Of a DNA stretch of 64,000 nt, positions 3,001 through 42,815 are shown one piece after another. Made by a program: the position numbers and the translations under genes. Every line of letters starts with the position of its first letter. Within the stretch, counting starts at the first letter, position 1. Source of the stretch: Squalus acanthias (Eukaryota); contig CM059432.1 in NCBI GenBank assembly GCA_030390025.1, positions 39,310,001-39,374,000 of the forward strand, given 5' to 3'. The notes beneath the pieces are model-generated. The model did no database searches, was not told the DNA's origin, and saw only the letters and a program-made list of their open reading frames with translations.

Positions 3001-6000
3001 AAGGCCAGACCCCCCCCTTCACCCGATCGAGGCCAGACCCCCCCCCTTCACCCGATCGAGGCCAGACCCCCCCCTTCACCCGATCGAGGCCAGACCACCC
3101 CCTTCACTCGATCGAGGCCAGACCACCCCCTTCACTCGATCGAGGCCAGACCCCCCCCTTCACCCGATCGAGGCCAGGCCTCCCCTTCACCCGATCGCGG
3201 CCAGACCCCCCCTTCACTTGATCGAGGCCAGACCCCACCTTCACCCGATCACGGCCAGACCCCCCCTTCACCTGATCGAGGCCAGACTCCCCTTCACCCG
3301 ATCGCGGCCAGACCCCCCCTTCACCCGAATGTGGCCAGACCCCCCCTTTACCCGATCGAGGCCAGACCCCCCCTTCACCCGATCGAGGCCAGACCCCCCC
3401 TTCACCCGATCGAGGCCAGACCCCCCCTTCACCCGATCGAGGCCAGACCCCCCCTTCACCCGATCGAGGCCAGACCCCACCTTCACCCGATCGAGGCCAG
3501 ACCCCCCTTTCACCCGATCGAGGCCAGACCCCCCCTTCACCAGATCGAGGCCAGAACCCCCCTTCACCCGATCGAGGCCAGACCCCCCTTCACCCGATCG
3601 AGGCCAGACCACCTCCTTCACCCGATCGAGGCCAGACCCCCCTTCACCCGATCGAGGCCAGACCCCCCCCTTCACCCGATCGAGGCCAGACCACCCCCTT
3701 CACTCCATCGAGGCCAGACCCCCCCCTTCACCCGATCGAGGCCAGACCCCCCCCTTCACCCGATCGAGGCTAAACCACCCCCTTCACTCGATCGAGGCCA
3801 GACCACCCCCTTCACCCGATTGAGGCCAGACCACCCCCTTCACCCGATCGAGGCCAGACCCCCCCCTTCACCCGATCGAGGCCAGACCACTCCCTTCACC
3901 CGATCGAGGCCAGACCTCCCCTTCACCCGATCGCGGCCAGACCACCCCCTTCACTCGATCGAGGCCAGACCCCCCCCTTCACCCGATCGAGGCCAGACCC
4001 CCACTTCACCTGATCGCGGCCAGACCCCCCACTTCACCTGATCGCGGCCAGACCCCCCCTTCACTTGATCGAGGCCAGACCCCCCTTCACCCGATCGAGG
4101 CCAGACCCCCCCTTCACCTGATCGAGTCCAGACTCCCCTTCACTCGATCGAGGCCAGACCCCCCCTTCACCCGATTGAGGCCAGACCCCCCCTTCACCCG
4201 ATCGAGGCCAGACCACTCCCTTCACCTGATCGAGGCCAGACCCCCCTTCACCCGATCGCGGCCAGACCCCCCCTTGCCCGAATGTGGCCAGACCCCCCCT
4301 TCACCCGATCGAGGCCAGACCCCCCTTCACCCGATCGAGGCCAGACCACCTCCTTCACCCGATCGAGGCCAGACCCCCCTTCACCCGATCGAGGCCAGAC
4401 CCCCCGCTTCACCCGATCGAGGCCAGACCACCCCCTTCACTCGATCGAGGCCAGACCACCCCCTTCACCCGATCGAGGCCAGACCCCCCCCTTCACCCGA
4501 TCGAGGCCAAACCACCCCCTTCACTCGATCGAGGCCAGACCACCCCCTTCACCCGATCGAGGCCAGACCAACCCCTTCACCCGATCGCGGCCAGACCCCC
4601 CCTTCACCCGAATGTGGCCAAACCCCCCTTTCACCCGATCGAGGCCAGACCCCCCCTTCACCAGATCGAGGCCAGACCCCCCCTTCACCCGATCGAGGCC
4701 AGACCCCCCTTCACCCGATCGAGGCCAGACCACCCCCTTCGCCCGATCGAGGCCAGACCACCCCCTTCACTCGATCGAGGCCAGACCACCCCCTTCACCC
4801 GATCGAGGCCAGACCCCCCCCTTCACCCGATCGAGGCCAAACCACCCTCTTCACTCGATCGAGGCCAGACCACCCCCTTCATCCGATCGAGGCCAGACCA
4901 CCCCCTTCACCCGATCGAGGCCAGACCCCCCCCTTCACCCGATCGAGGCCAGACTACCCCCTTCACTCGATCGAGGCCAGACCCCCCACTTCACCCGATC
5001 AAGGCCAGACCCCCCCCTTCACCCGATCGAGGCCAGACCCCCCCCTTCACCCGATCGAGGCCAGACCCCCCCCTTCACCCGATCGAGGCCAGACCACCCC
5101 CTTCACTCGATCGAGGCCAGACCACCCCCTTCACTCGATCGAGGCCAGACCCCCCCCCTTCACCCGTTCGAGGCCAGACCTCCCCTTCACCCGATCGCGG
5201 CCAGACCCCCCCTTCACTTGATCGAGGCCAGACCCCCCCTTCACCCGATCACGGCCAGACCCCCCCTTCACCTGATCGAGGCCAGACTCCCCTTCACCCG
5301 ATCGCGGCCAGACCCCCCCTTCACCCGAATGTGGCCAGACCCCCCCTTTACCCGATCGAGGCCAGACCCCCCCTTCACCCGATCGAGGCCAGACCCCCCC
5401 TTCACCCGATCGAGGCCAGACCCCCCTTCACCCGATCGCGGCCAGACCCCCCCTTCACCCGATCGAGGCCAGACCCCCCCTTCACCCGATCGAGGCCAGA
5501 CCCCCCCCTTCACCCGATCGAGGCCAGACCCCCCTTTCACCCGATCGAGGCCAGACCCCCCCTTCACCAGATCGAGGCCAGACCCCCCCTTCACCCGATC
5601 GAGGCCAGACCCCCCTTCACCCGATCGAGGCCAGACCACCTCCTTCACCCGATCGAGGCCAGACCCCCCTTCACCCGATCGAGGCCAGACCCCCCCCTTC
5701 ACCCGATCGAGGCCAGACCACCCCCTTCACTCGATCGAGGCCAGACCCCCCCCTTCACCCGATCGAGGCCAGACCCCCCCCTTCACCCGATCGAGGCTAA
5801 ACCACCCCCTTCACTCGATCGAGGCCAGACCACCCCCTTCACCCGATTGAGGCCAGACCACCCCCTTCACCCGATCGAGGCCAGACCCCCCCCTTCACCC
5901 GATCGAGGCCAGACCACCCCCTTCACTCGATCGAGGCCAGACCCCCACTTCACCCGATCGAGGCCAGACCCCCCCCTTCACCCGATCGAGGCCAGACCAC

Positions 6001-6685
6001 CCCCTTCACTCGATCGAGGCCAGACCCCCCCCTTCACCCGATCGAGGCCAGACCACCCCCTTCACTCGATCGAGGCCAGACCCCCACTTCACCCGATCGA
6101 GGCCAGACCCCCCACTTCACCCGATCGAGGCCAGACCACCCCCTTCACTCGATCGAGGCCAGACCACCCCCTTCACTCGATCGAGGCCAGACCACTCCCT
6201 TCACCCGATCGAGGCCAGACCTCCCCTTCACCCGATCGCGGCCAGACCACCCCCTTCACTCGATCGAGGCCAGACCCCCCCCTTCACCCGATCGAGGCCA
6301 GACCCCCCCTTCACCTGATCGCGGCCAGACCCCCCCTTCACTTGATCGAGGCCAGACCCCCCTTCACCCGATCGCGGCCAGACCCCCCCTTCACCTGATC
6401 GAGGCCAGACTCCCCTTCACCCGATCGCGGCCAGACCCCCCCTTCACCCGAATGTGGCCAGACCCCCCCTTTACCGATCGAGGCCAGACCCCCCCTTCAC
6501 CCGATCGAGGCCAGACCCCCCCTTCACCCGAACGAGGCCAGACCCCCCCTTCACCCGATCGAGGCCAGACCCCCCCTTTACCCGATCGAGGCCAGACCCC
6601 CCCTTCACCCGATCGAGGCCAGACCCCCCCTTCACCCGATCGAGGCCAGACCCCCCCTTCACCCGATCGAGGCCAGACCACCCCC
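1..6685. repeat. C-rich tandem satellite, ~28-31 bp unit (C5-8 TTCACCCGATCGAGGCCAGAC); runs off the window start
   Basis: Unit directly visible throughout; length varies mainly in the C tract; recurring variants (CACTCGAT, CGCGGCC, CGAATGTGG, GCCAAACC). Confidence 0.99.
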
Positions 6686-7123
6686 AGAGTAGGTTGGAAC
6701 TCTACTCATTGGAATACAGAAGAATGAAGGCGATCTTATCGAAACATATAAGATTGTGAGAGGGCTTGATCGGGTGGATACTGGGAGGATGTTTCCACTG
6801 ATGGGTGAGACTAGAACTAGGGAACATAATCTTAGAATAAGGGGCTGCCGTTTCAAAACTAAGATGAGAAGAAACTTCTTCACTCAGAGGGTAGTAAATC
6901 TATGGAATTTGCTACCTCAGAGAGCTGTGGAAGCTGCGACATTAAATAAATTTAAAACGGAGATAGACAGTTTCCTAGCTGATAAGGGAATTAAGGGTTA
7001 TGGGGAGCAGGCAGGGAAGTGGACGTGAGTCTAGGTTCGGATCAGCCATGATCCTATTGAATGGCGGAGCAGGCCCGAAGGGTTGTATGGCCTACTCCTG
7101 CTCCTACTTCTTATGTTCTTATG
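6686..7123 (+). mobile_element. 5'-truncated CR1 LINE 3' end inserted in the satellite
   Basis: ORF 6756-7028 has the CR1 ORF2 C-terminus (RRNFFTQRVVNLWN, FKTEID); ends in a (TTCTTATG)2 tail; satellite resumes in register at 7124. Confidence 0.95.
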
Positions 7124-7690
7124 TTCACCCGATCGAGGCCAGACCACCTCCTTCACTCGATCGAGGCCAGACCACCTCCTTCACTCGATCGAGGCCAGAC
7201 CACCTCCTTCACTCGATCGAGGCCAGACCACCTCCTTCACTCGATCGAGGCCAGACCACCTCCTTCACCTGATCGAGGCCAGACCACCCCCTTCACCCGA
7301 TCGAGGCCAGAGGTCCCCCTTCACCCGATCACAGCGAGACCCCCCCCTTCACCCGATCGAGGCCAGGCCCCCCTTCACCCGATCGAGGCCAGACCCCCCT
7401 TCACCTGATCGCAGCCAGACCCCCCCCCTTCACCCGATCGAGGCCAGACCCCACTTCACTCGATCGAAGCCAGACCCCCACTTCACTTGATCGAAGTCAG
7501 ACCACCCCTTCACCCGCTCGCAGCCACATCCCCCCTTCACCCGATCGCAGCCAGACCACCCCCTTCACCCGATCGAGGCCAGACCACCCCCTTCACCCGA
7601 TCGAGGCCAGACCCCCCCTTCACCCGATCGAGGCCAGACCCCCCCTTCACCCGATCGAGGCCAGACCCCCCTCCCTTTCACCCCTTCATG
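7124..7690. repeat. Distal part of the same satellite, degenerating towards its end
   Basis: Same unit; about five ACCACCTCCTTCAC variant units follow the CR1, then divergence rises. Confidence 0.97.
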
Positions 7691-15040: not shown

Positions 15041-16075
15041 ATGGGGGCTCTACTGGTAGTCCCCCTCGCGCTCGAGTATCTTCGGGAGAGGGAGCGGAGG
15101 CAGCGAAGAAGAGGAGAAGATGCGCAGAGGGATGAGGAGGAGGGCCAGGAGGGCTCTCAACAGGCAGCCTTACCCACTTAGGGACTTCCGAGTGCACTTC
15201 TCTTATATCCACTTAAGTAAGCAGCAGTGTATTAGGAAGCTTCGCTTCACCAAGGAGGCGGTCACAGAACTCTGCCACTTCCTGCAGCCAGACCTGGAGC
15301 CTCAGAGCAGGGCGAGCACGGCTCTCCCAGTAGACCTCAAGGTCACCGTGGCCCTCAACTTCTTCACCAGCAGATCCTTCCAGTCTGCAGCAGGAGACAT
15401 AGCTAACATTTCACAGTTTGCCGTCCATCGCTACATCTGGGAGGTCACTGAGGCTGTTTACACCAGGAGAAGGGACGACATTGTCTTCTCTCTGAGCAGG
15501 GAGAAACACGCAAACATGCATGTGGTTTTGCCAGGATAGCGGGCTTCCCCGTGGTGCAGGGCACCATCAACTGAACACATGAGGCTTTGCAGGCGCGGCA
15601 TATCAATCCTGAGATGTACCATAACCGCAAAGGCTGCCACTCACTTACTGTGCAGTTGGTGTGCGACCACGCCCAGCGCCTCCTGATGGTCAATGCCCGC
15701 TCTGCTGGCAGCAGCCATGATGCCTTCATCCTGCATCAGTCTAGTGTAACAGCAATCTTCCAGCCACCACATGAAACTCAAGGGTGGCTGATCGGAGACA
15801 AGGGCTATCAGCTCTGCATATGGCTCATGGCTCCCCTCCGCAACCCCACCACATGTGCCCAACACTCATATAATGAGAACCATGCTTCCACCAGGAACAT
15901 CGTCGAGCAAACCAACGTGCTACTGAAGCAATGGTTCCGCAGCCTTGACCGCTCAGGAGGAGCCCTCCAGTTCACATAGGAGCGGCTGTCCCATTTCGTG
16001 ATAGTCTGCTGCATGCTTCACAACTTGGCCATCATGAAGGCGCAGGCCTTGCCATCAGGGATTATGGGACCATCT
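15041..16075 (+). pseudogene. HARBI1-like (PIF/Harbinger) DDE transposase, frameshifted, with stops
   Basis: Motifs LRFTKEAVTELC, VTVALNFF..SFQ, YHNRKG.HSL.VQLVCD, GSSHDAFIL, GWLIGDKGY, YNENHASTRNIVEQ, CCMLHNLA spread over three frames. Confidence 0.95.
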
Positions 16076-16166
16076 GGGGTTGCAAAAGACAATGCTGAAG
16101 AGTTTCAAAACATCTTCAGCCAGAAGTGCCGAATGGATGATCCATATCGGCCTCCTCTTGAAGTCC
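16076..16166 (+). mobile_element. 5' piece of a second LINE family (CR1/Jockey superclade, here 'family B'), split by a CR1
   Basis: AKDNAEEFQNIFSQKCRMDDPYRPPLEV matches AKDKAEAFVTIFSQKCRVDDPYRSPPEV in ORF 39985-41022; continues at 23295. Confidence 0.9.
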
Positions 16167-16825
16167 GGAGTGCAGATTGGAACAGAGTGTTAAACTGCGA
16201 GTTTGGTGAGTGAGGGAGTGAATCTTAAAGGTTAATCTCTTATTTTTATAAATTCTAGTCTTGTGTACTTGCAATTAGCATTTAAATTTACTGTTTCAAT
16301 TTTTAAGTTTCTTCCAGGCTTGGGCAGGGCTAAGCATGCTCTGTGCTGGAGAGCAGGTGAGAGTAATTAATTAATTAAGTGGTCTAATCTGGTTCTGAAA
16401 CTGCCAGAGAGCTCACTTATTTAAATTTCAGCAGCATAAATAAGGGAGGCTAGAGTGCAGTTTGTCACGGAGTGGAGATTGGAACAAAGTGTTAAGCTGT
16501 GAGTTTGGTGAGTGAGGGAGTGAATCTTAAAGGTTAATCTCTTATTTTTATAAATTCTAGTCTTGTGTGCTTGTAATTAGCATTTAAATTTACTGTTTCA
16601 ATTTTTAAGTTTCTTCCAGGCTTGGGCAGGGCTCAGCAAACTCTGTGCTGGAGAGCAGGTGAGAGTAATTAATTAATTAAGTGGTCTAATCTGGTTCTGT
16701 AACTGCCAGAGAGCTCACTTATTTAGATCTCAGCAGTATAAATAAGGGAGGCTAGAGTGCAGTTTGTCACGGAGTGCAGATTGGAACAGAGTGTTAATCT
16801 GCGAGTTTGGTGAGTGAGGGAGTGA
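16166..16825 (+). repeat. Tandem 302-bp monomers (2 full + 1 partial) forming the CR1 5' end
   Basis: CGGAGTG(C/G)AGATTGGAACA starts at 16166, 16468 and 16770. Confidence 0.95.
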
Positions 16826-17049
16826 GTTCTTTTTCCATCTTTGTCAGCTTCCAGGAGAGCAGGAGCTAAAAAGCTGCACAAAAGAGGGGACAGAGAACCA
16901 GCGGTGAGTATTTCTACAGTATTTCTTCATTCCAGTCATTAAAGTAAAAGTAAGGTCTCTAGTTTAGAGTAAGTAGTGTTTAAAAAGAAGTAAGGTCCCT
17001 AGTGTCTTTAATATTCTTTAATTTAAAGGGAGTAAATTAAGGGTAGAAC

Positions 17050-17994
17050 ATGGCAGGGCAGCTCGGAAGTGTGGAGTGCTCCTCCTGTGCAATGTTGGAA
17101 GTCAGGGACACTTTAGGTGTCCAGGGCGAACACATGTGCAGGAAATGTCTCCAGCTGCAGCTACTTGAAATCCGCGTTTCGGAGCTGGAGCTGCGGCTGG
17201 AGTCACTGTGGAGCATCCGCAAAGCTGAGATCTTTGTGGATAGCACGTTTAATGAGGTGGTCTCACCGCAGGTAAAGAGTACACAGGCAGACAGGGAATG
17301 GGTGACCGCCAGACAGAGTAAAAGAACTAGGAAGGTAGTGCAGGAGTCCCCTGGGTCCATCTCCCTCTCCAACAGATTTTCCGTTTTGGATACTGCTGGG
17401 GGAGATGGTTTCTCAGGGGAATGCAGCAAGAGCCAAGTCCGTGGCACTACGAGTGGCTCAGCTGCACAGGAGGGGAGGAAAAAGAGTGGGAGAGCAATAG
17501 TGATAGGGGATTCTATCGTAAATGGAACAGATAGACGTTTCTGTGGCCGCAGACGTGACTCCAGGATGGTATGTTGCCTCCCTGGTGCCAGGGTCAAGGA
17601 TGTCACTGAATGGCTGCAGGGCATTCTGAAGGGGGAGGGCGAACAGTCAGAGGTCGTGGTTCATGTTGGTACCAACGGCATGGGTAGAAAGAGGGATGAG
17701 GTCCTGCAACAAGAATTTTGGGAGCTAGGTAGCAGATTAAAAAGCAGAACCTCAAAGGTTGTAATCTCTGGATTACTCCCGGTGCCATGTGCTAGTGAGT
17801 ATAGGAATAGGAGGATAGAGCAGATGAATGCGTGGCTAAAGAGTTGGTGCAGGAGGGAGGGCTTTAGTTTCCTGGATCACTGGGTCTGCTTCTGGGGAAG
17901 GTGGGACCTGTACAAGTCGGACGGGTTGCACCTGAACCGGAACAGGACCAACATCCTTGCGGGGAGGTTTGCTAGTACTGTTGGGGGGGGTTAA
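17050..17994 (+). CDS. CR1 ORF1p: Cys-rich zinc finger/leucine zipper plus SGNH (GDSL-like) esterase domain
   Basis: Open 314-aa ORF: CSSC...CRKC, heptad leucines, VIGDSI, VHVGTN, DGLHLN. Confidence 0.92.
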   Translation: MAGQLGSVECSSCAMLEVRDTLGVQGEHMCRKCLQLQLLEIRVSELELRLESLWSIRKAEIFVDSTFNEVVSPQVKSTQADREWVTARQSKRTRKVVQESPGSISLSNRFSVLDTAGGDGFSGECSKSQVRGTTSGSAAQEGRKKSGRAIVIGDSIVNGTDRRFCGRRRDSRMVCCLPGARVKDVTEWLQGILKGEGEQSEVVVHVGTNGMGRKRDEVLQQEFWELGSRLKSRTSKVVISGLLPVPCASEYRNRRIEQMNAWLKSWCRREGFSFLDHWVCFWGRWDLYKSDGLHLNRNRTNILAGRFASTVGGG

Positions 17995-20461
17995 ACTAAC
18001 TTGGCAGGGGGATGGGATACGGAGTAGAGCTATAGTAGGGGGTGATGCACAGCCAAATATAGAGGAAAAAACAAGTCAGCCTGGAAGGCAGAGCAAATAT
18101 GTAATGGCACAAGGGAGTATGGCAAGGCTGGATGGCATTTATTTTCATGCAAGGAGTCTTGCGAGTAAGGCAGATGAATTGAAGGTGTTGATGAACACAT
18201 GGGAGTATGATATTGTTGCTATCACTGAGACATGGTTGAGGGAGGGGCAGGACTGGCAGCTCAATATTCCGGGGTATAGAATCTTCAGGCGAGACAGAGG
18301 GGGGTGTAAAAGAGGAGGGGGTGTCGCAATATTAATCAAGGAGCCAATTACTGCTGTAAGGAGGGATGATATCTTAGCAGGTTCCTCTAATGAGGCCATA
18401 TGGGTAGAACTTAAAAACAAAAAGGGGGCAAGCACTTTGCTGGGAGTGTACTATAGGCCCCCAAACAGTCAGGGGGAGATAGAGGAACAGATATGTAGGC
18501 AAATCTCAGAAGTGTAGAAATAATAGGGTAATAATAGTAGGGGATTTCAACTTCCCCAATATTAACTGGAATAGTCAGAGTGTGAAAGGCTTAGAGGGTG
18601 TGGAATTCTTAAAGTGCATCCAGAGAGCGTTTTGAGCCAGCATGTAGAAAGTCCTACAAGAGAGGGGACGGTACTGGACCTAATTCTAGGGAATGTAGCC
18701 GGGCAAGTGGTGGAAGTGTTAGTAGGAGAGCATTTTGGTGACAGTGACCATAATTCGGTGAGATTTAAGGTAGTCATGGAAAAGGACAAAGATGGACCGG
18801 AACTAAAGGTTCTAAATGGCAGGAAGGCCGATTTTAATATGATAAGGCAGGATCTGGCCAAAGTGGACTGGGATCAGCTATTTGTAGGAAAATCCACATC
18901 AGAGCAGTGGGAGTCTTTCAGAAAGGAAATAGAGAGAGTACAACGGCAACATGTTCCCGTAAAGGTCAAGGGTGGGACCAATAAGCCCAGGGAACCCTAG
19001 ATGTCAAGGGATATACGAGAATGGATTAGGAAAAAAAGGGAGGCTTTTGGCAGATACAAAGGACTAAAAACAATGGAAGCCCTAGAGGAGTATAGAAAGT
19101 ACAGGGGGGTACTTAAAAAAGAAATTAGGAGTGCGAAGAGGGGGCATGAAAAAACACTGGCGGGCAAAATAAAGGAAAACCCCAAGGTGTTTCATAAGTA
19201 TATTAAGGGCAAGAGGATAACCAGGGAAAGAGTAGGGCCCATTAGGGACCAAAGTGGCAATCTGTGTGTAGAGGCAGAAGATGTAGGTGAGGTTTTAAAT
19301 GAATATTTTGCATCTGTGTTCACTATGGAGAAGGACGATGTAGGCATAGAAATCAGGCAGGGGGATTGTGATATACTTGAACAAATTAGTATTGAGAGGG
19401 AGGAGGTACTAGCGGTTTTAGCAGGCTTAAAAGTGGATAAATCCCCAGGCCCAGACGAGATGTATCCCAGGCTTCTGTGTGAGGCAAGGGAGGAGATTGC
19501 AGGGGCTCTGACACAAATTTTCAGAACCTCTCTGGCCACAGGGGAGGTGCCAGAGGACTAGAGAACAGCTAATGTAGCATCATTATTCAAGAAGGGTAGT
19601 AGGGATAAACCAGGGAATTACAGGCCAGTGAGCCTAACATCAGTGGTAGGGAAATTATTGGAAAAAATTCTGAGGGACAGAATTAGTCTCCACTTGGAGA
19701 GGCAAGGATTATTCAAGGATAGTCAGCATGGCTTTGTCAGGGGGAGATCATGGCTGACCAATTTGATTGAATTTTGAGAGGGGGTGACTTGGTGTGTGGA
19801 TGAGGGTAGTACAGTTGATGTGGTCTACATGGACTTCAGTAAGGCTTTTGACAAAGTCCCGCATGGGAGACTGGTCAAGAAGGTAAGAGCCCATGGGATC
19901 CAGGGCAACTTGGCACATTGGATCCAAAATTGGTTTAGTGGCAGGAAGCAGAGGGTGATGGTCGAAGGTTGTTTTTGTGACTGGAAGCCTGTGTACAGTG
20001 GTGTACCACAGGGATCGGTGCTGGGTCCTTTGCTGTTTGTAGTGTACATTAATGATTTAGATATGAATGTAGGAGGTATGATCAGTAAGTTTGCAGATGA
20101 CACGAAAATTGGTGGGGTGGTAAATAGCGAGGAGGGAAGCCTCAGGCTACAGGACGATATAGATGGGTTGGTTAGATGGGCAGAACAGTGGCAAATGGAA
20201 TTTAACCCTGAAAAGTGTGAGGTGATGCATTTTGGGAGGACTAACAAGGCAAGGGAATACACAATGAACGGTAGGACCCTAGGAAGGACAGAGGATCAGT
20301 GGGACCTTGGTGTGCATGTACATAGATCCCTGAAGGCAGCAGGACAGGTAGATAAGGTGGTTAAAAAGGCATAGGGGATACTTGCCTTCATTAGCCGAGG
20401 CATAGAATATAAGTGAGAAGTCGCACAACACCAAGTTATCGTCCAACAGCTTTATTTGAAA

Positions 20462-20498
20462 TCACAAGCTTTCAGAGCGCTGCTCCTTCGTCAGGTGA
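20462..20498 (-). ncRNA. Minimal type I hammerhead ribozyme motif (inverted copy)
   Basis: Reverse complement reads UCAC-CUGACGA-A-GGAGC(agc)GCUCU-GAAA-GC-UU-GUGA; the one change leaves a G-U wobble. Confidence 0.75.
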
Positions 20499-20592
20499 AG
20501 TGAAGAAATACAAATGGGCACAGCATATATAGTCAGAGAACAATGCCTGTGCAGAGAACAATGCCAGACGACTACAGTTAATCTTTCTAACT

Positions 20593-20629
20593 TCACCTGA
20601 CGAAGGAGCAGCGCTCCGAAAGCTTGTGA
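20593..20629 (+). ncRNA. Minimal type I hammerhead ribozyme motif
   Basis: UCAC-CUGACGA-A-GGAGC(agc)GCUCC-GAAA-GC-UU-GUGA: intact core, stem I, stem II and palindromic stem III (AGCU). Confidence 0.8.
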
Positions 20630-21308
20630 TTTCAAATAAAGCTGTTGGACTATAACCTGGTGTTGTGCGACTTCTCACTTTTGTCCACCCCAGTCCAACA
20701 CCGGCATCTCCGCATCATAGAATATAAGAGCAGGGAGGTTATGATGGAGTTGTACAAAACGCTAGTTAGGCCACAGCTGGAATACTGTGTGCAGTTCTGG
20801 TCGCCACACTATAGGAAGGATGTGATTGCATTGGAGAGGGTGCAGAGGAGATTCTCCAGGATGTTACCTGGGCTGGAGCGCTTCAGCTATGAAGAGAGAT
20901 TGGACAGGCTGGGGTTGTTTTCCTTAGAGCAGAGAAAGCTGAGGGGGGACCTGATTGAGATGTACAAAATTATGAGGGGCATAGATAGGGTAGATAGAAA
21001 GGAACTTTTCCCCTTAGTAGAGGGGTCAATAACCAGGGGGCATAGTTTCAAGGTAAGGGGCAGGAGGTTTAGAGGGGATTTGAGGAAAAACTTTTTCACC
21101 CAGAGGGTGGTTGGAATCTGGAACTCACTGCCTGAAAGGGTGGTAGAGGCAGGAACCCTCACAACATTCAAGAAGCATTTAGATGAGCACTTGAAACGCC
21201 ATAGCATACAAGGCTACGGACCAAGTGCTGGAAAATAGGATTAGAATAGACAGGGCTTGATGGCCGGCACAGACACGACAGGCCTCTTTCTGTGCTGTAT
21301 AACTCTAT

Positions 21309-22163
21309 GGGGGAAAATTTCAGTTGGTTGCACCTCCCGTTAGCGCCTTAAGAGGGCGCTAATGGGGCGCAAAGCAACTAGCGCCCGGGCGCGGCGATGT
21401 TTGCGCTGCTCGTGAAATTAACAACACATTTTGCGGCGGCGCTAAACAGTACCGCCACAATCTCCTGCGCCGGCAGATCGTGATGTCAGTCGTGTGCGCA
21501 ACGCCCCGGTAGCGCCCCGGAGCGGATATTGAGTGGCGCCCCCTGCCTTACCACCTGCCGTTAGCAACGACAGGTTGAGGGGAGCTTCTTGCAGTCAGGA
21601 AGGGACTGGGGGAGCGCTATTTAAAGGCGACCGCTTCTTGCCTTTTTTTGTTGGCGACATTTTTGAACCATGCATTCTGAGAGAGAGAGAGAGAGAGAGA
21701 GAGAGAACTTCTGGAGAGATTCAACGCTGTGTGAAGGAGTTTTTGGTACTGAGCAGCACTTTGCAGGTTCATTTTGATTTGCCCTTCCTTGTATTGATTT
21801 AGAAGAGACTGTTGGGGCTGCACTCTGAGCTCTTTCCCCGGGCCTCTCCATTGTTATTTCCAGCAGATTTGATGTACAGGTTTCTCCAGGCCGAGATTCA
21901 AGGCTGCAATGAGCAGGATGTGGATGGAAAGCAAGATTAACCCTCGCCTTTAAGAACTGGCCGGGGCCATTGTGTCTGTGTTCCATTGCTGATTGACATC
22001 ACATGAGCTTCGCCAGCGCTCTGAGTTAGCACCTCGCTCCAATCACCTCCAGGGGCGATAAAAGTAAAGTTTGCAGTCGGAGGCGATAATTAACGCCAGG
22101 CGCTAATCTTTGCGCCCGGCCAATAATTGCGCCCCAAATGGGGCGATACTGAATTTTTCCCCC
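21309..22163. mobile_element. Harbinger-type MITE, copy 1
   Basis: TIRs GGGGGAAAATTTCAGT / ACTGAATTTTTCCCCC; TAT on both sides; many TAGCGC/GCGCTA motifs; internal (GA)n. Confidence 0.9.
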
Positions 22164-22165
22164 TA

Positions 22166-22395
22166 TGACCACATATCCGCGCCATCACTAAAACTGCCTA
22201 TTTCCACCTCTGGAACATCACCCGACTCCACCCCTGCCTCAGCTCATCTGCTGCTGAAACCCTCATCCATACCTTTGTTATCTCTACACTTTACTATTCC
22301 AATGCACTCCTGGTCGGCCTCCCATGTTCTACTCTTCATAGCTTCCACTCCTTTATCTCAAGGGGGGTGGAATACAAAGGCCAACAGTCTAATAG
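22166..22395 (+). repeat. Dispersed duplicate of 42285-42514 (L2/CR1 junction sequence)
   Basis: Base-by-base match apart from ~3 substitutions and a 21-bp inversion. Confidence 0.95.
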
Positions 22396-23287
22396 GGGGA
22401 GAAATTCAGTATCGCCCCATTTGGGGCGCAATTATCGGCCGGGCGCAAAGATTAGCGCCTGGCGCTAATTATCGCCACCGACTGCAAACTTGACTTTTAT
22501 CGCCCCTGGAGGTGATTGGACCGCTAAATCAGGCGCTTCACACCTGTCTTAAGGCGCAAAGGCCGAGGAGCGAGGCGCTACCTCAGAGCGCTGGCGAAGC
22601 TCATGTGATGTCAGTCAGCAATGGAACACACACACAATGGCCCGGGCCAGTTCTTAAAGGGGATGGTTAATCTTGCTTTCCATCCACATCCTGCTCATTG
22701 TAGCCTTGAATCTCGGCCTGGAGAGACCTGCACATCAAATCTGCTGGAAAGAACAATGGAGAGTACCAGGCAAAGAGCTCAGAGTGCAGCCCCCACAGAC
22801 TCTTCTAAATCGATACAAGGAATGGCAGATCAAAATGAACCTGCAAAGTGCTGCTCAGTACCCAAAACTCCTTCACACAACGTTGAATCTCTCCAGAAGT
22901 GTCTCTCTCTCTCTCTCAGAATGTGTAGTTCAAAAATGGCACCAACAATAAAAGGCAGGAAGCGGTCACCTTTAAATAGCGCTCCCCCTTTCCCTTCATG
23001 ACTGCAGAACGCTCCCCTCAACCTGTCGTTGCTAGCGTCAGGCGGTAAGGCAGGGGGCTCCACTCAATTTCCGCTCCGGGGCGTTACCGGGGCGTTGCGC
23101 ACTCGACTGACGTCACGATCTGCCGGCGCAGGAGATCGTGGCGGTAGTGTTTAGCGCCGCCGCAAAATGTCTAGTTAATTTCGCGAGCGGCGCAAACTTC
23201 GCCGCGCCTGGGCGCTAGATGCTTTGCGCCCCATTAGCGCCCTCTTAAGGCGCTAACGGGAGGCGCAACCAACTGAATTTTTCCCCC
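22395..23287. mobile_element. Harbinger-type MITE, copy 2, inverted relative to copy 1
   Basis: Reverse complement of 21309-22163 with scattered substitutions and an extra ~45-50 bp near 22520-22570; followed by TAT. Confidence 0.9.
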
Positions 23288-23294
23288 TATGACT

Positions 23295-24834
23295 CCCCAC
23301 CATCACAGAAGCCAGTCTTCAGCCAATTCAATTCACTCCACATGATATCAGGAAACAGCTGAGCACACTGGATACAGCAAAGGCTATGGCCCCTGAAAAT
23401 ATCCCGGCTGTCGTGCTGAAGACTTGCGCTCCAGAACTAGCCGCGCCTCTGGCCAAGCTGTTCCATTACAGCTACAACACTGGCATCTACCCAACAATGT
23501 GGAAAACTGCCCAGGTATGTCCTGTCCACAAAAAGCAGGACAAATCCAATCCAGCCAATTACCACCCAATCAGTCTAATCTCAATCATCACCAAAGTGAT
23601 GGAAAGTGTCATCGACAGTGCTATCAAGTGGCACTTACTCACCAATAACCTGCTCACCAATGCTCAGTTTGGGTTCCACCAGGACCATTCAGCTCCAGAC
23701 CTCATGATAGCCTTGGTCCAAACATGGACAAAAGAGCTGAATTCCAGAGGTGAGGGAGAGTGACTGCGCTTGACATCAAGGCAGCATTTGATTGAGTGTG
23801 GCATCAAGGAGCCCTAGTAAAATTGGCGTCAATGGAAATCAGGGGGAAAACACGCTACTGGCTGGAGTCATACCTAGCACAAAGGAAGATGGTTGTGGTT
23901 GTGGTTGTTGGAGGTCAATCTCAGCCCCAGAACATCGCTGCAGGAGTTTCTCAGGGCAGTGTCCTAGGCTCAACCATCATCAACTGCTTATCAATGACCT
24001 TCCTTTCATCATAAGGTCAGAAGTGGGGATATTCGCTGACGATTGCACAGTGTTCAGTTCTATTCGCAACTCCTCAGATAATGAAGCAGTCCATGGATGA
24101 CATTCAGGCTTGGGCTGATAAGTGGAAAGTAACATTCGCGCCACACAAGTGCCAGGCAATGCCTATCTCCAACAAGCGAGAGTCTAACCAACGCCCCTTG
24201 AAATTCATTATCCTGGGGGTCACCTTTGACCAGAAACTTAACCACATAAATACTGTGGCTACAAGAGAAGTTCAGAGGCTGGACATTCTTCGGCGAGTGT
24301 CTCACCTCCTAACTCCCCAAATCCTTTCCACCATCTACAAGGCACAAGTAAGGAGTGTGATGGAATACTCTCCACTTGCCTGGATGAATGCAGCTCCATC
24401 GACACTCAAGAGCTTGACATCATCCAGGACAAAGCAGCCCACTTGATTGGCACCCCATCACCATCTTAAACATTCACTCCCTCCACCACCGGCGCACAGT
24501 GGCTGCAGTGTGTACCATCGGCAGCACCTCCCAAACCCACGACCTCCACCATCTAGATGGACAAGGGCAGTAGGCACCTGGGAACACCATCACCTGCAAG
24601 TTCCCCTCCAAGTTACACACCATACTGACTTGGAAATATATTGTCATTCCTTCATCGTCGCTGGGTCAAAATCCTGGAACTTCCTCCCTAACAGCACTGT
24701 GGGAGCACCTTCACCACATGGACTGCAACGGTTCAAGAAGGCGGCTCACCACCACCTTAAGGGCAATTAGAGATGGGCAATAAATGCTGACCTTGCCAAC
24801 GAGGCCCACATCCCAGGAACGAATAAAAAAAAAA
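23295..24834 (+). mobile_element. 3' part of family B LINE (RT, 3' end, poly-A)
   Basis: VVLKTCAPELA, NY.PISL, QFGF, DIKAAFD, GVSQGSVLG, FADD, SWNFLP, FKKAAHHHL; ends GAATAAAAAAAAAA. Confidence 0.93.
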
Positions 24835-24864
24835 CCTCAGGAGGAGGATGAGGGAGAGGAGGAG

Positions 24865-26663
24865 TCATAGTCTTAGAGTCATAACGGCTAGAAGGAGGCC
24901 ATTCGGCCCATCGAGTCTGTGCCGGCTCTCTGTAGAGCAATCCAGTCGGTCCCATTCCCCCGCTCTATCCCCGTAGCCCTACAAGTTTATTTCACTCAAG
25001 TTCCTATCCAGTCCCCCCTTGAAAACATGAGTGTCTCCGCTTCCACCACTTCCGTCGAAAGCGAGTTCCAGGTCCTCACCACTCGCTGCGTAAAAAAGTT
25101 TTTCCTCACGTCCCCCCTGTATCTCTTGCCCAAAACCTTAAATCTGTGTCCCATAGTCCTTGTACCATCAACTAGTGGGAACAGCCTTTCCCCGTCTAGC
25201 CTATCCAAACCCGTCATAATCTTGTACACCTCTATCAAATCACCCCTCAACCTCCTTTGCTCTAATGAAAACAAATCCAGCTTCTCCAACCTGTCCTTGT
25301 AGCTAAGATCCCCCATCCCCGGAACCATTCTGGTAAATCTCCTCTGCACTCTCTCAAGGGCCTTCACATCCTTCCTAAAGTGTGGTGACCAGAACTGGAG
25401 GCAATACTCCAGTTGTGGCCTAACCAGCGCTTTATAAAGGTTCAGCATAACTTCTCTACTTTTGTACTCAATACCTCTATTTATGAAGCCCAAGATCCCA
25501 TATGCTTTGTTAACCACTCTCTCAATATGTCCTACCACCTTCAGGGACCTGTGCACATTAACTCCCAGGTCCCGCTTTCCCTGCACACTCTTTATAACTG
25601 TGCCATTAAGTGTATATTGCCTCTCCCTGTTCCTTCTGCCAAAATGCATCATCTCACACTTCTCTGTATTAAATTCCATCTGCCACTTGTCTGCCCATTC
25701 TGTTAGCCTTTCTACGTCCTGTTGCAGTCGATTGGTATCATCATCACTGTCTGCCACACCCCCAAGTTTGGTGTCATCGGCAAATTTAGAAATTCTACTC
25801 TGTATTCCAATATCCAGGTCATTTATATATATATAACAAAAAAAGCAGTGGCCCCAGCACTGACCCTTGGGGAACACTCCTGTCTACCATCCTCCAGTCT
25901 GAAAAACAGCCATTTACCAAAACTCGCTGTTTTCTGTCCTTAAGCCAATTCCTTATCCAAGCTGCCACTTACCCACCTATTCCATGAACCTCAATTTTGT
26001 TAACCAGCCTTCTATGTGGGACTTTGTCAAAAGCCTTCCTAAAATCCATGTAGACAACTTCCACTGCATTCCCTTCGTCAATCCTCTGTTACGTCATCAA
26101 AAAATTCAATTAGATTAGTCAAACACGATCTGCCTTTTACAAATCCGTGTTGGCTCTCCTTAATTAGCTTAAACCTCTCCAAGTGCCCGTTAATTTTTTC
26201 CTTGATTATTGTTTCAAAACCATTACCCACCACTGATGTTAAACTGACTGGCCTGTAGTTACTAGGATTGTCCTTATACCCTTTCTTGAACAGTGGTGTC
26301 ACATTTGCCACTTTACAATCCTCAGGCACCTCCCCCGCATCTAGGGAAGATTGCAAAATTATGGCAAGCTCTTCCGCTATCTCCTGCCCCAATTCCCTTA
26401 GCAACCTAGGATGCAAGCCATCTGGACCAGGTGACTTGTCCACTCTAAGCATACCCAGCCTTTCTAGTACATCCTGTCTATCAATTTTCACCCCTTCCAT
26501 TGCTTCTACCTTTTCCACTTCTACTGATATTTTGTCAGCATCCGCCTCCTTAGTAAATACCGATACAAAGTACTCATTGAGTATTCTAGCCTTGCCCTGC
26601 GCCTCTAAGCATATAACACCTTCTTTGTCTCGAATAGGCCCCACCCCACCTCTTACTACCCGT
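24865..26663 (-). mobile_element. 5'-truncated CR1 LINE (RT region)
   Basis: ORFs 24996-25877 and 26078-26660: KSPGPDG, NYRPVSLTS, QHGF, FADD, NFFTQRVV; possible TSD GAGGAGGAG at 24856-24864 and 26664-26672. Confidence 0.95.
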
Positions 26664-27562: not shown

Positions 27563-28239
27563 GGGCTGGATTTTCATTGACCCGTGTAGGCGGGTTTGGA
27601 GGCGTGTGGGGGGTTAAAATTGCAAAAAGTGGCGGGCAGGCACAAGTCCGCCTCCATCCCGCCTCCACGCAATTTTGATGAAATCGTGTCTGCTGGTCCC
27701 GACTGCGTCCCGCCTTTAAGAGACGGGATAGGCTGTTAAGGCCCTTAGCAAGCACTAAATTGGTTCTATAATGCCATTTTGAAAGGCCTTTCTGATTTTA
27801 ACCCTTGTTCTACGTGAAGCACGCCTGTTCTGAAACACGATTGTGAAACCTGGCGGGAGCACATGTGGATAGCTGAATATCAGTGGCTGCGCTGAGTATC
27901 AGTGAGAGGCTGGCTGGCATCTGGGAGTGGTGGAGCAAAAACAAATTCTCTCTCTCTCTCTCTCTCTCTGACTTAGAGCTGCTGCTCATTTTGCATCCAG
28001 GTCCTCTCACAGCAAAGGCCAGGCAGTCTCTGACCTTCAATGCAGCATCAATGAAGATATCATCAGAGGCGACTTTCAGACTGAAACCACTAATTGGTTC
28101 ATGGGTTCCCACATGCTGGAACTCAATTGCCCAATTAGGTGAAAATTGCATCAATCTCCCACATCCAATTGCAGTCGGGTGGATAACACGAAATGTGGAT
28201 GACATGAACCCAACCCGCCCCAGTATCAAAATCCAGCCC
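27563..28239. mobile_element. Harbinger-type MITE (second family) inside CR1
   Basis: 12-bp perfect TIR GGGCTGGATTTT/AAAATCCAGCCC; flanks TAT/TCT; homologous to 41317-42060. Confidence 0.9.
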
Positions 28240-32097: not shown

Positions 32098-33780
32098 CTG
32101 GGCCTGTAAGGCCCGGTTGTAGACTACACCACCTCAGCATGGGCGGCAACAGTCTGGGCTGGCTGGATGACAGGCAGCAACAAGGGCAATGGCAGAGTGG
32201 CAGTTGTGGGAGCAGGAATGCTATCATCCTGAGAGAGGAGCGCAGGTTCCTGCTCCATTGACCCACAGCCACTCCTCCAGGGCAGCACCTCAGCATCCCT
32301 AGCAATCTGTTGGAGCACAGATTGCAGGCCTCCTGCGACACCGTGAAAGCCCCGGTCGACAGTGGGAGACCCAACCACGATGGCAGCAGTCAGAAGCTGA
32401 GACTGCATGAGAGCAGTCTGAGATTGGATGCCACCAAGCATAGACTGCATTACAACACTAAAGCATTGTGTCGCTTCCGCCTGTGCTGTAATGGAAGCTG
32501 CCAGATCGCCCATCACACACTGCATCAGGTCTAGGTCACCACAATCTATCTGGGAGTCTACCATCCTTTGCAGACTAGAAATGATGGGCTCCATGGTGTG
32601 CGCAGAGCCTTGTGTAATGTTGGAGGTGGACTCCTCCACGCTCCTTACCATTGCTGAGAGGCTGTCGGGCACCCTTGCCAGTGCACCTATCATCTCCGTG
32701 TGCATGCCCATGACCCTTCTTCTAAAGGCCTCCCCATCAAGGTCCTCATCTGAGTCCTGTGCAGCAGAACTTGCCCTCCAGGGTTAGCTGGCCCCCGAGC
32801 TACCCTTTCCCCCTGGCCTTGCTGCAGCCCACTCCTTCCTGGTGCCTCACCCTGTGCAGATCCCGCTACTATACTAGCCTCTAAAGAATGCACAGTACCA
32901 GTATCTGAGCTGGTGCCTGCGGGTGAGACATGCAGTGACACGGTGTGTTCTACCTCGTCCTCTTCTCCCACTTTGCTCTCAACGGTGCCCTCAGGGACAG
33001 GCTGCTCAGGTGCTTGCTGATTATCTGAAAGCATAAAGGCACAAGAGTTGGGTTAAGGTGAGGGGAGGGGGGCAGGAAGGGAGAAATGCATGCATACAGC
33101 ATGATTAGCTGGAAAGTGCGAAACGCTTGTGAGGTGAGGGGGAAGTGGGATGTGAGAAGAAATGAGTAGGGATGAACATACCATTGTTAACATCGCTGGT
33201 GGCCACGGCACCCACCGCCTGGCACCCAATAATCTGCAACACTCTATCTTCCAGCGCAGACAGTGTTTGGGTGTCGGCTTGTCCCCCGCCTGTGCGCTCC
33301 TGCTCCCTCCTGTTGTGAGCCACCTTGGCCTGCAAGAGAAAGGAAAGTGTGTGAGTGAGTGTGGCGCAATGTGTTTGGGTGATGTACCTGCCATCGTTGA
33401 ATAGCTGTGGGTGTGAGTGTTGGTAGGTAGAGATTACTGCTGGGTGAGTGCGGGGGGTGTGGTGCTTTGGACAGTGTGTGCAGACTGTGGTTCAGATGGT
33501 GGTAGTAGCATTTGGTGAAGCATTGACTCACACTCACCCTGACGACCCGAGTGAGGTCGTAAAATTTCTTCTTGCACTGCGTATGGGTCCTGGGGACCAC
33601 AGTGCTGCCCGAGACGTTCTGGGCTACCTCGCTCCACATGGCGTGGAAGACTTGTGGCAAGGGCCTCCTGCCACTTGCTGGATGGAGCACTGCCCTCCGT
33701 CTCTCCACAGCGAAGACCAATGCCTCAAATGCTTGATCGCAGAATCTGCGGGCTCTCTCCCTGGGGCGTGAATCTGCCAT
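32098..33780 (-). pseudogene. Harbinger Myb/SANT-like DNA-binding gene, three exons (33780-33538, 33329-33182, 33024 to ~32098), frameshift in exon 3, cut by CR1
   Basis: RERARRFCDQAFEALV...W.EVA...RT..QCKKKFYDL is a Myb/SANT (NAIF1/MSANTD-like) domain; GT-AG introns in phases 0 and 1 join the exons in frame. Confidence 0.9.
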
Positions 33781-34185
33781 CAGTACAGCTGCTTGAGTTG
33801 TCCGGCTCCTGCTACTTGACCTGTTGTTGCTTGCTGAGACAGCTGCACAGCCAGCAATGCTGAGAATGAGGTTCTGCAGCATCAATAAACCTCCCCTTTA
33901 AGAACTGGAAATAGCCTGTTGCAATGATGATTTGCGATTAGACTGCACGCGATATTGGTCCACCCTTTGATTGTAACGCCAATGAGCTTGGGCTTTAATG
34001 TTTGATTTAGCGCTCCAATTATTTCTTTGAGCAGTTAGCGTTAATTTTGCGTGCAGTCTAAAGTATTAGCGCTTAGCGCTAATTCTCAACCTTTCCTAAA
34101 GATACCACCATTCCTGGGCTATAATGAATTTCTAGCCCATATTATTTCTTGTTATATATTTATGTTATAATGTTTTCTTTTTGTC

Positions 34186-41316: not shown

Positions 41317-42060
41317 GGGCTCGATTTTGCCAGGCCCGAGGAGGTGGGAATGGAGGCGTGTGGGGTGTTAAAATTGCAAAAAATGGCGGGCGGGCCCGAC
41401 CCCACCTCCAAGCAATTTTCCCAAATACGTGGTTTCTGATCCCGTCTCCGTCCTGCCTCCAAGAGGCGGGATAGGCCCTTAACAACCACTTAATAGCCTC
41501 TATAATCCCATTTTGAGAGGCCTTTCTGATTTTAAGACTTTTCCGACGTGATGCACGCCTCCTCTGAAACACGACGGTGAAACCTGGCAGTAGCACACTT
41601 GGATTGCTAACTATCAGCTGCAGGTCCACCATTAAGAAGGAGATTTGATCAATCATCATTCTGGGGGAACTTTTAGCAGTCATAAGCATTGTTGTGGAAG
41701 TTTGGAGCTTGGAGCTTGGAGCTTGGAGCCTGGAGGAGGAGTAGTGGTAGTGGTAGTGGTAAAAAATCTGGGAGCAAGCTTAGGTCTCCTGCTGCTTATT
41801 TTGCCTCCAGGTCCCTCTCACAGCAAAGGCCAAAAGCTTCCCAGTCTTTGCAGACCTTAAATGCAGCAGCAATGATGACATCATCAGAGGCGACTTTCAG
41901 ACTGAAAAAACTAATTGGGTCATAGGTTTCCACATGCTGGAACTCAATTGCCCAATTAGGGGAAAATCACATAATTCTCCCACATCCAATTGGAGTCAGG
42001 TGGCTAACACAAAAAGCTGATGACACGACCCCAGCCCGCCCCAATGACAAAATCGAGCCC
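41317..42060. mobile_element. Harbinger-type MITE (second family), copy 2
   Basis: TIR GGGCTCGATTTT/AAAATCGAGCCC; interior homologous to 27563-28239. Confidence 0.9.
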
Positions 42061-42129: not shown

Positions 42130-42455
42130 TACTAAATATTGGAAAGACCGAAGCCATTGTCTTCGATCCTCACCACAAACTCCGCTCCCTAGCCACTGAC
42201 TCCATCCCTCTCCCTGGCAACTGTCTGAGGCTGAACCAGACTGTTCGCAACCTTAGTGTCGTATTTGACCCCGAAATGAGCTTCTGACCACATATCCGCG
42301 CCATCACTAAAACTGCCGATTTCCACCTCCGGAACATCACCCGACTCCACCCCTGCCTCAGCTCATCTGCTGCTGAAACCCTCATCCATACCTTTGTTAT
42401 CTCTACACTTTACTATTCCAATGCACTCCTGGTCGGCCTCCCATGTTCTACTCTT
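42130..42455 (+). mobile_element. L2-clade LINE RT fragment
   Basis: Manual translation LNIGKTEAIVF...VRNLSVVFD.EMSF*PHIRAITKTA.FHLRNI.RL.P.LS..AAETLIH.FV, typical of L2. Confidence 0.85.
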
Positions 42456-42815
42456 CATAGCTTCCACTCCTTTGTATTCCACCCCCCTTCAGATAAAGGC
42501 CAACAGTCTAATAGCCTTTTAACTTATTTTTTGCACCTGTTCACTAGCTTTTAGTGATTTCTGTACATGGACCCCTAAATCTCTCTGCTCCTCCACAGTT
42601 CCTAGCTTCTCACCATTTAGAAAATACTCTGATCTATCTTTCTTGGGTCCAATGTGGATGACCTCGCACTTCCCCACATTGAACTCATCTGCCACAGTTT
42701 TGCCCACTCACATAATCTATCAATGTTTTTCTGCAACTTTCTGCTCCCATCTACACTATTTACTGTGCCACCTAACTTGGTGTCATCAGCAAAGTTGGAT
42801 AAATGGCTCTCTGTT
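42456..42815 (-). mobile_element. CR1 RT fragment
   Basis: FNVGKCEVIH, QRDLGVHV, AFI*RGVEYKGVE on the reverse strand. Confidence 0.88.

What the first reader, a model, noticed from the sequence alone, without database searches (positions are those of the whole stretch)
21306..23295. Compound-transposon-like unit: two inverted MITEs enclosing DNA copied from 20 kb downstream
Seen: the CR1 tail AACTC-TAT|...|TAT-GACTC is split by MITE (21309-22163) + ~230-bp spacer + inverted MITE (22395-23287), so a TAT duplication brackets the whole ~2-kb unit. The spacer matches 42285-42514, including an L2(+)/CR1(-) junction; both LINE pieces extend further at 42 kb, so that site is the donor, and it has no MITE at either copy boundary. 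The joints show 4-bp microhomologies (TGAC, ATAG). By my count the spacer differs from the donor at ~3 positions while the MITE copies differ at ~7% over the first 260 bp, so they are not a simple fold-back copy. Known: Pack-type capture and alternative transposition are described for TIR elements, mostly in plants. Inference: MITE-mediated local capture (compound or one-ended transposition, or template switching during repair).
Basis: partly seen in the sequence, partly recalled or inferred. Interest (0 to 1): 0.75.

Follow-up and report, generated by a model that had tools for sequence, protein, structure and literature searches.

The report
Two-step Harbinger pair with copied flank
In a shark-like genome, a young jumping element appears to have landed against an older relative and brought along a copy of 230 neighbouring bases from 20 kb away, a one-off accident of transposition and repair rather than a composite element that jumped as one piece.

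Summary
The structure is real at the stated coordinates: element A (21309-22163), a 230-bp copy of 42285-42514, and inverted element B (22395-23287). It is probably not a compound transposon that jumped as a unit. A has its own TAT/TAT duplication, and its inner flank TATGAC repeats the outer flank, so A was there first. B has unmatched flanks (ATA/TAT), and its inner flank is the donor, so B and the spacer most likely arrived together. (1) The spacer holds a 21-bp inversion between CCTTT/AAAGG arms, a template-switch scar. (2) In public contigs, B's letters at 10 of 13 listed sites are common in one organism and rare in two others, while A has the shared letters. B thus looks like a younger subfamily, which reconciles 7.2% A-B divergence with 1.3% spacer-donor divergence. 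Best model (about 0.55): B sat at the donor's ATA; one-ended transposition or template switching copied B plus its flank to A's right TAT, closed at a TGAC microhomology; the donor is now an empty allele. No read bridges the junctions and no genome was available, so assembly and uniqueness are untested. The mechanism classes are known; no function is shown.

The parts
16167..21305 (+). Near full-length CR1-type LINE whose 3' tail received the elements (5' limit approximate)
   Evidence: ORF 17047-17994 hits Lipase_GDSL_2, E 9e-11; ORF2-like frames to 21238; host LINE is interrupted at 16166 and resumes at 23294. CR1 label from own knowledge of LINE anatomy.
21306..21308 (+). Left TAT of A's target-site duplication
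   Evidence: ACTC-TAT-GACT fits A-N-N-Y / R-N-N-T 4 of 4
21309..22163 (+). Element A: non-autonomous PIF/Harbinger-type element, 855 bp, 16-bp TIR, carries the letters shared with organisms H and I, 49-bp internal deletion
   Evidence: weak DNA similarity (63% over 125 nt, E 2e-5) to the start of a Myb_DNA-bind_5 frame near 33.9 kb
22164..22169 (+). TATGAC: A's right TSD plus 3 more bases of the original flank; TGAC (22166-22169) is shared with the donor
22166..22395 (+). 230-bp copy of 42285-42514 (L2-like/CR1-like junction), 3 point differences
22355..22375 (-). 21-bp inversion relative to the donor, between CCTTT (22350-22354) and AAAGG (22376-22380)
22392..22394 (+). ATA: last donor triplet, B's inner flank; inferred remnant of B's earlier target triplet
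   Evidence: the role is inference
22395..23287 (-). Element B: same family, inverted, 893 bp, carries letters common in organism A and rare in H and I; no direct TSD (ATA / TAT)
23288..23293 (+). TATGAC: remainder of the CR1 tail, original right flank
23294..23920 (+). Older host LINE, continuous with 16081-16166
   Evidence: RVT_1 hit E 2e-5, below Pfam's cut-off
42285..42514 (+). Donor segment; both LINE frames extend beyond it; no element and no length change against other CR1 copies around 42511-42514
42511..42513 (+). ATA triplet where B is inferred to have sat
   Evidence: inference; target pattern fits only 2 of 4

Best explanation
Two steps. Step 1 (well supported): A inserted normally into TAT of a CR1 tail. 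Step 2 (inferred): a younger family member sat, or still segregates, at the ATA at 42511-42513. One aberrant event brought that element and 230 bp of its left flank to A's right TAT. B's outer end was joined exactly at the triplet, either by transposase strand transfer of that one end or by a nascent strand returning through the 16-bp TIR it shares with A's inner end. The other side was closed at the TGAC microhomology after A's end had been extended over TATGAC. The spacer was made by error-prone copying, which also flipped 21 bp between 5-bp inverted arms. The donor now shows the empty allele, because the insertion was heterozygous or was excised precisely. The product is a single-copy scar of repeats that could fold into a hairpin of about 800 pairs; no function is shown.
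For: A has TAT/TAT at a 4-of-4 target. Its inner flank equals the outer flank for 6 bp, whereas the donor has TCT there. B's inner flank is donor sequence up to its first G, ends in the complement of the TAT triplet (ATA frequency 0.016 in this window), and B has no direct TSD. Spacer-donor 3 of 230 against A-B 61 of 844, Fisher p 2e-4. At 10 of the 13 listed positions in B, copy A has the letter that makes up 88-99.8% of depth in organisms H and I but only 13-87% in organism A, so B's letter marks a lineage-restricted subfamily. Contigs joining the element end to a CR1 3' end occur in 4 of 4 runs (2, 2, 4, 5 contigs), so CR1 tails are recurrent targets. A's right TAT is still a 3-of-4 target. 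Precise excision is usual for PIF/Harbinger in assays (PMC4561436 abstract and section 7; PMC2836001 passages). Local donors and microhomology are typical of gap filling at TIR elements in animals (PMC8277862 section 8). An unrelated inversion in 230 bp would be expected about once in 1000 or less if human-chimp rates apply (my arithmetic from PMC5453318 passages).
Against: No element or footprint is seen at the donor, so the key premise is unobserved. The donor ATA fits the target pattern only 2 of 4. Another Harbinger-type element in the window (41317-42060) also has ATA/TAT flanks, so unmatched flanks may arise without such an event. Polarising 27 A/B differences with two distant relatives gave 9 A-derived, 9 B-derived, 9 unclear, which does not show that A is older. 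The subfamily table is 40 of 539 rows, depth-weighted, from organisms of unknown relation to this one (best share of words 0.65). Precise excision is disputed in rice (1 of about 70 in one study, PMC4423477 passages). No read or contig bridging any junction was listed. B's outer TIR matches two distant relatives as well as A's inner TIR, so the 16-bp identity does not prove a return switch.
Confidence: 0.55

Rival explanations
1. Three steps: A first; then the spacer alone, as a templated repair patch (TGAC on the left, TA on the right); then B inserted on its own at the right joint, leaving a 2-bp TA duplication or TAT with one T lost.
For: Removing B and one TA gives a clean donor-to-TATGAC join; CR1-tail triplets are recurrent targets; the element at 41317-42060 shows the same ATA/TAT flanks; filler DNA at DNA-transposon breaks is common (PMC4423477 passages).
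Against: Needs B to hit exactly the joint (2-of-4 target) and an imperfect TSD; A has a perfect TSD and 27563-28239 a one-mismatch TSD.
Confidence: 0.13
2. Pure template switching without B at the donor: after copying the donor to ATAG the strand folded back on A's own inner end (or switched to another family copy), copied an element, and returned through the TIR. B's present sequence comes from that other copy or from later conversion.
Against: B differs from A along its whole length, already 7 bp from the inner end, has 49 bp that A lacks, and has subfamily letters from 22477 to 23219; a full-length conversion or a switch landing exactly on a distant element's end is needed.
Confidence: 0.12
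3. B first jumped into A's right TAT, making a near-palindrome (A-TAT-B) that broke at its centre and was patched with 230 bp from the donor.
For: A's right TAT is a 3-of-4 target; long inverted repeats with tiny loops are break-prone (own knowledge); needs no vanished element.
Against: GAC after TAT (frequency 0.010) and ATA before B (0.016) would both be coincidences; both inner TIRs are intact to the last base.
Confidence: 0.08
4. One reading: both elements flanked the segment elsewhere and entered this site together, as a compound transposon or a maize-type composite insertion.
For: TAT brackets the unit, outer TIRs intact; the donor's left boundary AGCT-TCT-GACC is a 3-of-4 target; maize composite insertions have this outline (PMC4270019 sections 6, 8; 10.1101/2020.01.07.897926 section 15).
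Against: A's inner triplet is TAT, the donor's is TCT, and it matches the outer flank for 6 bp; two elements would have to vanish from the donor; no adjoining large duplication or parent copy in the window; both outer ends are the same (5'-type) end; the two copies differ in subfamily letters.
Confidence: 0.07
5. Assembly artefact.
For: No bridging read or contig was listed; the scaffold has a 500-N gap at 58676-59175.
Against: The arms differ at 61 sites with subfamily structure, the spacer differs from the donor by 3 substitutions and an inversion, and the host LINE is continuous across the insert; chimeric reads give identical arms (own knowledge).
Confidence: 0.03

Closest known systems
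Single-copy Pack-TIRs made by gap filling in animals (Tan et al. 2021, PMC8277862; abstract, sections 8 and 9 read)
   Same: Local same-chromosome donor, microhomology at the joint, TIR element present before the capture, single copy as far as seen.
   Different: There the filler sits inside one broken element; here it lies between two whole, inverted elements that differ in subfamily letters, and the 20-kb distance is beyond their <15 kb majority class (56.9%).
Composite insertions from alternative transposition of maize Ac/Ds (PMC4270019, abstract and sections 6, 8; 10.1101/2020.01.07.897926, abstract and section 15)
   Same: Outline TSD - element - flank copy - element - TSD; flank pieces joined at a 4-bp microhomology; inverted element copies that can form dsRNA.
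   Different: hAT, not Harbinger; both ends enter the target in one reaction, parents remain and large duplications usually adjoin. Here A looks resident, only one flank is foreign, and no parent or duplication is seen in the window.
Template switching among clustered mPing elements (rice HEG4 120-kb inversion, PMC5724284; passages read)
   Same: Same superfamily; extra element copies at a breakpoint, explained by template switching between neighbouring MITEs.
   Different: There the product is a large inversion; here a 230-bp direct copy, and the intervening 19 kb keeps its order as far as the host LINE and donor show.
Short template-switch spacer inversions (PMC5453318, passages read; PMC8604942, search listing only)
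   Same: In-place reverse complement of a short segment between inverted arms.
   Different: Here it lies inside a larger templated copy.
Tourist-like MITEs and non-autonomous PIF/Harbinger (PHIS) elements (PMC4561436, PMC2836001, PMC4482050)
   Same: Short TIR starting with G, 3-bp TSD, extended palindromic target, no transposase.
   Different: 855-893 bp is long for a MITE; TAT is none of the TSDs named in the passages read (TTA/TAA, ANT, CWG, TNA, AT).

Membership tests
Non-autonomous PIF/Harbinger (PHIS) element (A and B) | Short TIRs beginning with G or A | tested here: met
   16-bp TIR GGGGGAAAAATTCAGT, one mismatch in each copy; PMC4482050 passages
Non-autonomous PIF/Harbinger (PHIS) element (A and B) | 3-bp TSD within a longer palindromic target | tested here: met
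A: ACTC-TAT / TAT-GACT. Not met for B alone (ATA/TAT), which is the point of the finding.
Non-autonomous PIF/Harbinger (PHIS) element (A and B) | Link to an autonomous element with DDE transposase and Myb/SANT genes | tested here: inconclusive
   Window holds DDE_Tnp_4 and Myb_DNA-bind_5 relics; DNA similarity of A/B to the start of the Myb relic is weak (E 2e-5 and 2e-7); in the part of the tblastn output printed (its tail) only chance-level hits appeared
Non-autonomous PIF/Harbinger (PHIS) element (A and B) | High copy number | tested here: met
   Summed depth of 0.5-3.6 million over the bins inside B in 4 of 4 runs, similar to the LINE bins; not a copy count
Compound transposon moved as a unit | One TSD outside, inner flanks derived from the donor on both sides | tested here: not met
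   A's inner flank is the local TATGAC; donor has TCTGAC
Compound transposon moved as a unit | Further copies of the unit or an empty orthologous site | not testable with these tools
   No genome; read laying swamped by repeats
Pack-TIR (gap-filling type) | Captured non-element DNA inside one element's TIRs, splitting that element | tested here: not met
   Both elements have both TIRs
Pack-TIR (gap-filling type) | Nearby donor and breakpoint microhomology | tested here: met
   20,119 bp; TGAC
Pack-TIR (gap-filling type) | Orthologous element without the capture in outgroups | tested here: inconclusive
   longest listed piece 136 nt of contig or less on the stretch, none bridging a junction
Composite insertion by alternative transposition | TSD flanking two element ends that enclose copied flank, joined at microhomology | tested here: met
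   (outline only)
Composite insertion by alternative transposition | Parent elements at the donor and adjoining tandem or inverted duplication or excision footprint | tested here: not met
   No third close copy and no such duplication in the window beyond 6 kb; no footprint at 42514. Outside the window untested.
Short template-switch inversion | Replaced segment is the reverse complement of the original, in place | tested here: met
   20 of 21, p about 1e-11, CCTTT/AAAGG arms
Hairpin 'killer' locus (Ac killer type) | Inverted repeat able to form long dsRNA | tested here: met
   802 A-B pairs in the predicted fold, 13 identical runs of 21 nt or more
Hairpin 'killer' locus (Ac killer type) | Transcription, small RNAs, silencing in trans | not tested

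The most novel reading that the evidence does not exclude
A fossil of one-ended (alternative) transposition by a vertebrate Harbinger transposase. A young element dragged its flank to the end of an older relative and created a unit with matching outer TSDs and intact outer TIRs: a ready-made precursor of a Pack-type element. It is also an 800-pair hairpin placed directly behind a near full-length CR1 that could transcribe it and trigger small-RNA silencing of the family, as maize composite insertions do for Ac. If real, such units should recur across this genome wherever the family clusters at CR1 tails.
Probability: 0.15. Interest if true: 0.62.

Novelty: new variant of a known kind. Interest (0 to 1): 0.34.

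Why it matters
As it stands it is one scar made of repeats, with no gene involved. Its value is as a legible record: every joint is intact, the order of events can be argued from six bases, and the two elements can be dated relative to each other by subfamily letters. If the B-at-donor step is confirmed it shows that Harbinger elements in a vertebrate copy local flanks by aberrant transposition. Nine literature searches listed such events for maize Ac/Ds, Arabidopsis VANDAL21, rice mPing, and for TIR elements in animals as gap filling; none listed a vertebrate Harbinger case. The library lacks most subscription papers and only the top rows were seen. It also gives a search signature (unmatched flanks, whole element at a sibling's TSD, local donor) for a genome-wide count.

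Tried and rejected
Whole-genome search: no genome is held, so family consensus, TSD statistics and uniqueness of the chimera could not be computed. Run search: 21 runs listed, best share of words 0.65; runs of only 110-255 million letters hold 0.28-0.46, so much of the share is repeat content and no run clearly holds this locus. Rfam: 0 matches in 7700-58600. Pfam on the two frames inside A and B: 0 of 2 hit. Outgroup polarisation of A/B differences: 9/9/9, uninformative. CpG retention (A 5, B 10 of 15 CpG transitions) leans to B being younger but is too small to use. Bacterial promoter scan is irrelevant to a vertebrate and was not used. Earlier-finding look-ups by place and by sequence returned nothing for this locus. 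Rejected: simple fold-back of A (arms differ throughout); the spacer as a long TSD of a 20-kb insertion (the donor keeps both flanks); an inversion with staggered breaks (the copy is direct). No supplements were opened; Fig. S7 of PMC5724284 and the Pack-TIR tables of PMC8277862 may hold closer cases.
Full report
Setting. The window is repeat-rich vertebrate DNA. Earlier notes on the same genome call it shark-like, and its LINE content fits that by my own knowledge. It holds relics of a Harbinger transposase (DDE_Tnp_4, E 5e-23) and a Myb/SANT gene (E 2e-5). No whole genome was available. The finding lies in a nest: an older LINE is interrupted at 16166 and resumes at 23294; into it went a near full-length CR1; into that CR1's tail went the unit. 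The host LINE is continuous across the insert, so nothing was lost at the site and the original tail read ...ACTC TAT GAC.

Observation. Element A (21309-22163) and inverted element B (22395-23287) have 16-bp TIRs and differ at 61 of 844 aligned positions (7.2%; 29 transitions, 32 transversions), spread along the length; A also lacks 49 bp. The spacer 22166-22395 is colinear with 42285-42514, 20,119 bp away. Translation shows an L2-like frame on the plus strand and a CR1-like frame on the minus strand, both running beyond the copied part at 42 kb (the family names rest on my own knowledge, as no repeat library is on hand).

What was missed. First, positions 22355-22375 are the reverse complement of 42474-42494 (20 of 21), between CCTTT and AAAGG. 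The donor orientation agrees with four other CR1 copies, so the inversion arose in the spacer. PMC5453318 (passages) reports 4778 candidate short template switches against about 14.5 million human-chimp differences (my arithmetic from 3.84 million = 26.4%). At that ratio a segment with three substitutions would carry one about once in a thousand, so the inversion is probably tied to the making of the spacer or to its place in a hairpin loop. The transfer of rates to this animal is an assumption. Second, A has its own TAT/TAT, and what is repeated around [spacer+B] is TATGAC. The sequence follows the A-only allele to 22169 and the donor from 22166: a 4-bp overlap, with chance 0.014. The donor has TCT where A's inner triplet is TAT. 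Third, B's flanks are ATA and TAT, not a direct repeat, and the sequence follows the donor up to B's first G.

Relative age. Spacer and donor differ at 3 of 230 (1.3%, interval 0.3-3.8%), far less than A and B (p 2e-4). Laying public contigs on 22120-25000 (4 of 21 runs; organisms coded A, A, H, I) listed 40 of 539 variant rows, 13 inside B. At 10 of the 13, the alternative letter is the one copy A carries; it makes up 88-99.8% of depth in H and I but only 33-64% and 13-87% in the two runs of organism A. At one more site both copies share a letter that is rare in H and I; two sites are private to B. B thus belongs to a subfamily that expanded in the lineage of organism A, and part of the 7.2% is subfamily difference, not time spent at this locus.

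Target. Against the pattern A-N-N-Y/R-N-N-T from another note (e1-7807215), A's site scores 4 of 4, the element at 27563 4 of 4, A's right TAT 3 of 4, the donor's left boundary 3 of 4, the donor ATA 2 of 4 and the element at 41317 2 of 4.

Mechanism. Shown: the anatomy, the direction of copying, the inversion, A's own TSD. Well supported: A came first. Inferred: B sat at the donor ATA, and one event brought B and its left flank to A's right TAT. The exact join of B's terminal base to the triplet suits strand transfer of one end; a return through the shared 16-bp TIR would look the same, and the two cannot be told apart because that TIR is the ancestral one. The TGAC join suits a short extension over the original flank followed by microhomology joining. 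An empty donor is expected if the insertion was heterozygous, or after the precise excision described for mPing (PMC4561436, abstract and section 7; PMC2836001 passages), although PMC4423477 (passages) records conflicting rates. I give this 0.55. The rivals are independent insertion of B at the joint (0.13), fold-back or third-copy templating with conversion (0.12), a patched palindrome centre (0.08), a compound unit (0.07) and misassembly (0.03); 0.02 is left for others. These odds are judgement, not computed. The most awkward facts for the best model are the unseen element at the donor, the 2-of-4 target there, and a second element in the window with the same ATA/TAT flanks.

What could not be tested. 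No listed contig bridged a junction, so read support, polymorphism and orthologous states are open. The chimera's uniqueness was checked only inside the window (two copies). Metagenome scans gave nothing useful.

Comparison. It works like gap filling at TIR elements (PMC8277862, abstract and sections 8-9) but is not a Pack-TIR, since both elements are whole. It has the outline of a maize composite insertion (PMC4270019, abstract and sections 6, 8; 10.1101/2020.01.07.897926, abstract and section 15) but lacks parents and adjoining duplication in the window. The nearest same-superfamily case is template switching among clustered mPings (PMC5724284 passages). Head-to-head VANDAL21 elements with a 200-bp spacer are hypermutable in Arabidopsis (PMC12312487 passages), which offers another route to the small inversion. 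TSD classes were read from PMC4482050 (passages). No supplements were opened.

Possible consequence. The unit folds in silico into 802 A-B pairs with 13 identical runs of 21 nt or more, directly behind a CR1. Any inverted pair of this identity would fold so; transcription and small RNAs were not examined. The unit has matching outer TSDs and intact outer TIRs, so it could in principle move as one piece, but both outer ends are the same end of the element and no second copy is known.

Verdict. A real, legible, probably single-copy rearrangement among repeats. New variant of a known kind; interest 0.34.

Noticed in passing
window 41317-42060: Harbinger-type element (TIR starting GGGCTCGATTTT) with ATA / TAT flanks, the same unmatched pattern as B, ending 224 bp before the donor. 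Related (76-84%) to 27563-28239, which has TAT / TCT.
   Followed up: partly
window 51776-52480 and 44969-45660: Two distant relatives (59-68%) of the A/B family, both on the minus strand; the first has near-matching CTA/TTA flanks in its own orientation.
   Followed up: partly
window 15575-15979 (+) and 33247-33897 (-): Relics of a Harbinger DDE transposase and of a Myb/SANT gene; A and B resemble the DNA around the start of the latter weakly.
   Followed up: partly
window 16166-16825: 302-bp unit repeated 2.2 times (95%) at the 5' end of the CR1, ahead of an open 315-aa frame with a GDSL esterase domain (17047-17994).
   Followed up: no
window 1-6685 and 7124-7671: 28-bp satellite, about 243 and 20 copies, split by a minus-strand LINE fragment at about 6700-7126.
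   Followed up: no
window 20411-20501 and 20590-20680: Short inverted pair (91 nt, 97%) forming a SINE-like insert of about 300 bp inside the CR1 ORF2.
   Followed up: no
window 22599-22817 (B): Organisms H and I carry family variants that skip about 216 bp here; no such joint was listed for the two runs of organism A.
   Followed up: no
window 58676-59175: 500-N assembly gap.
   Followed up: no
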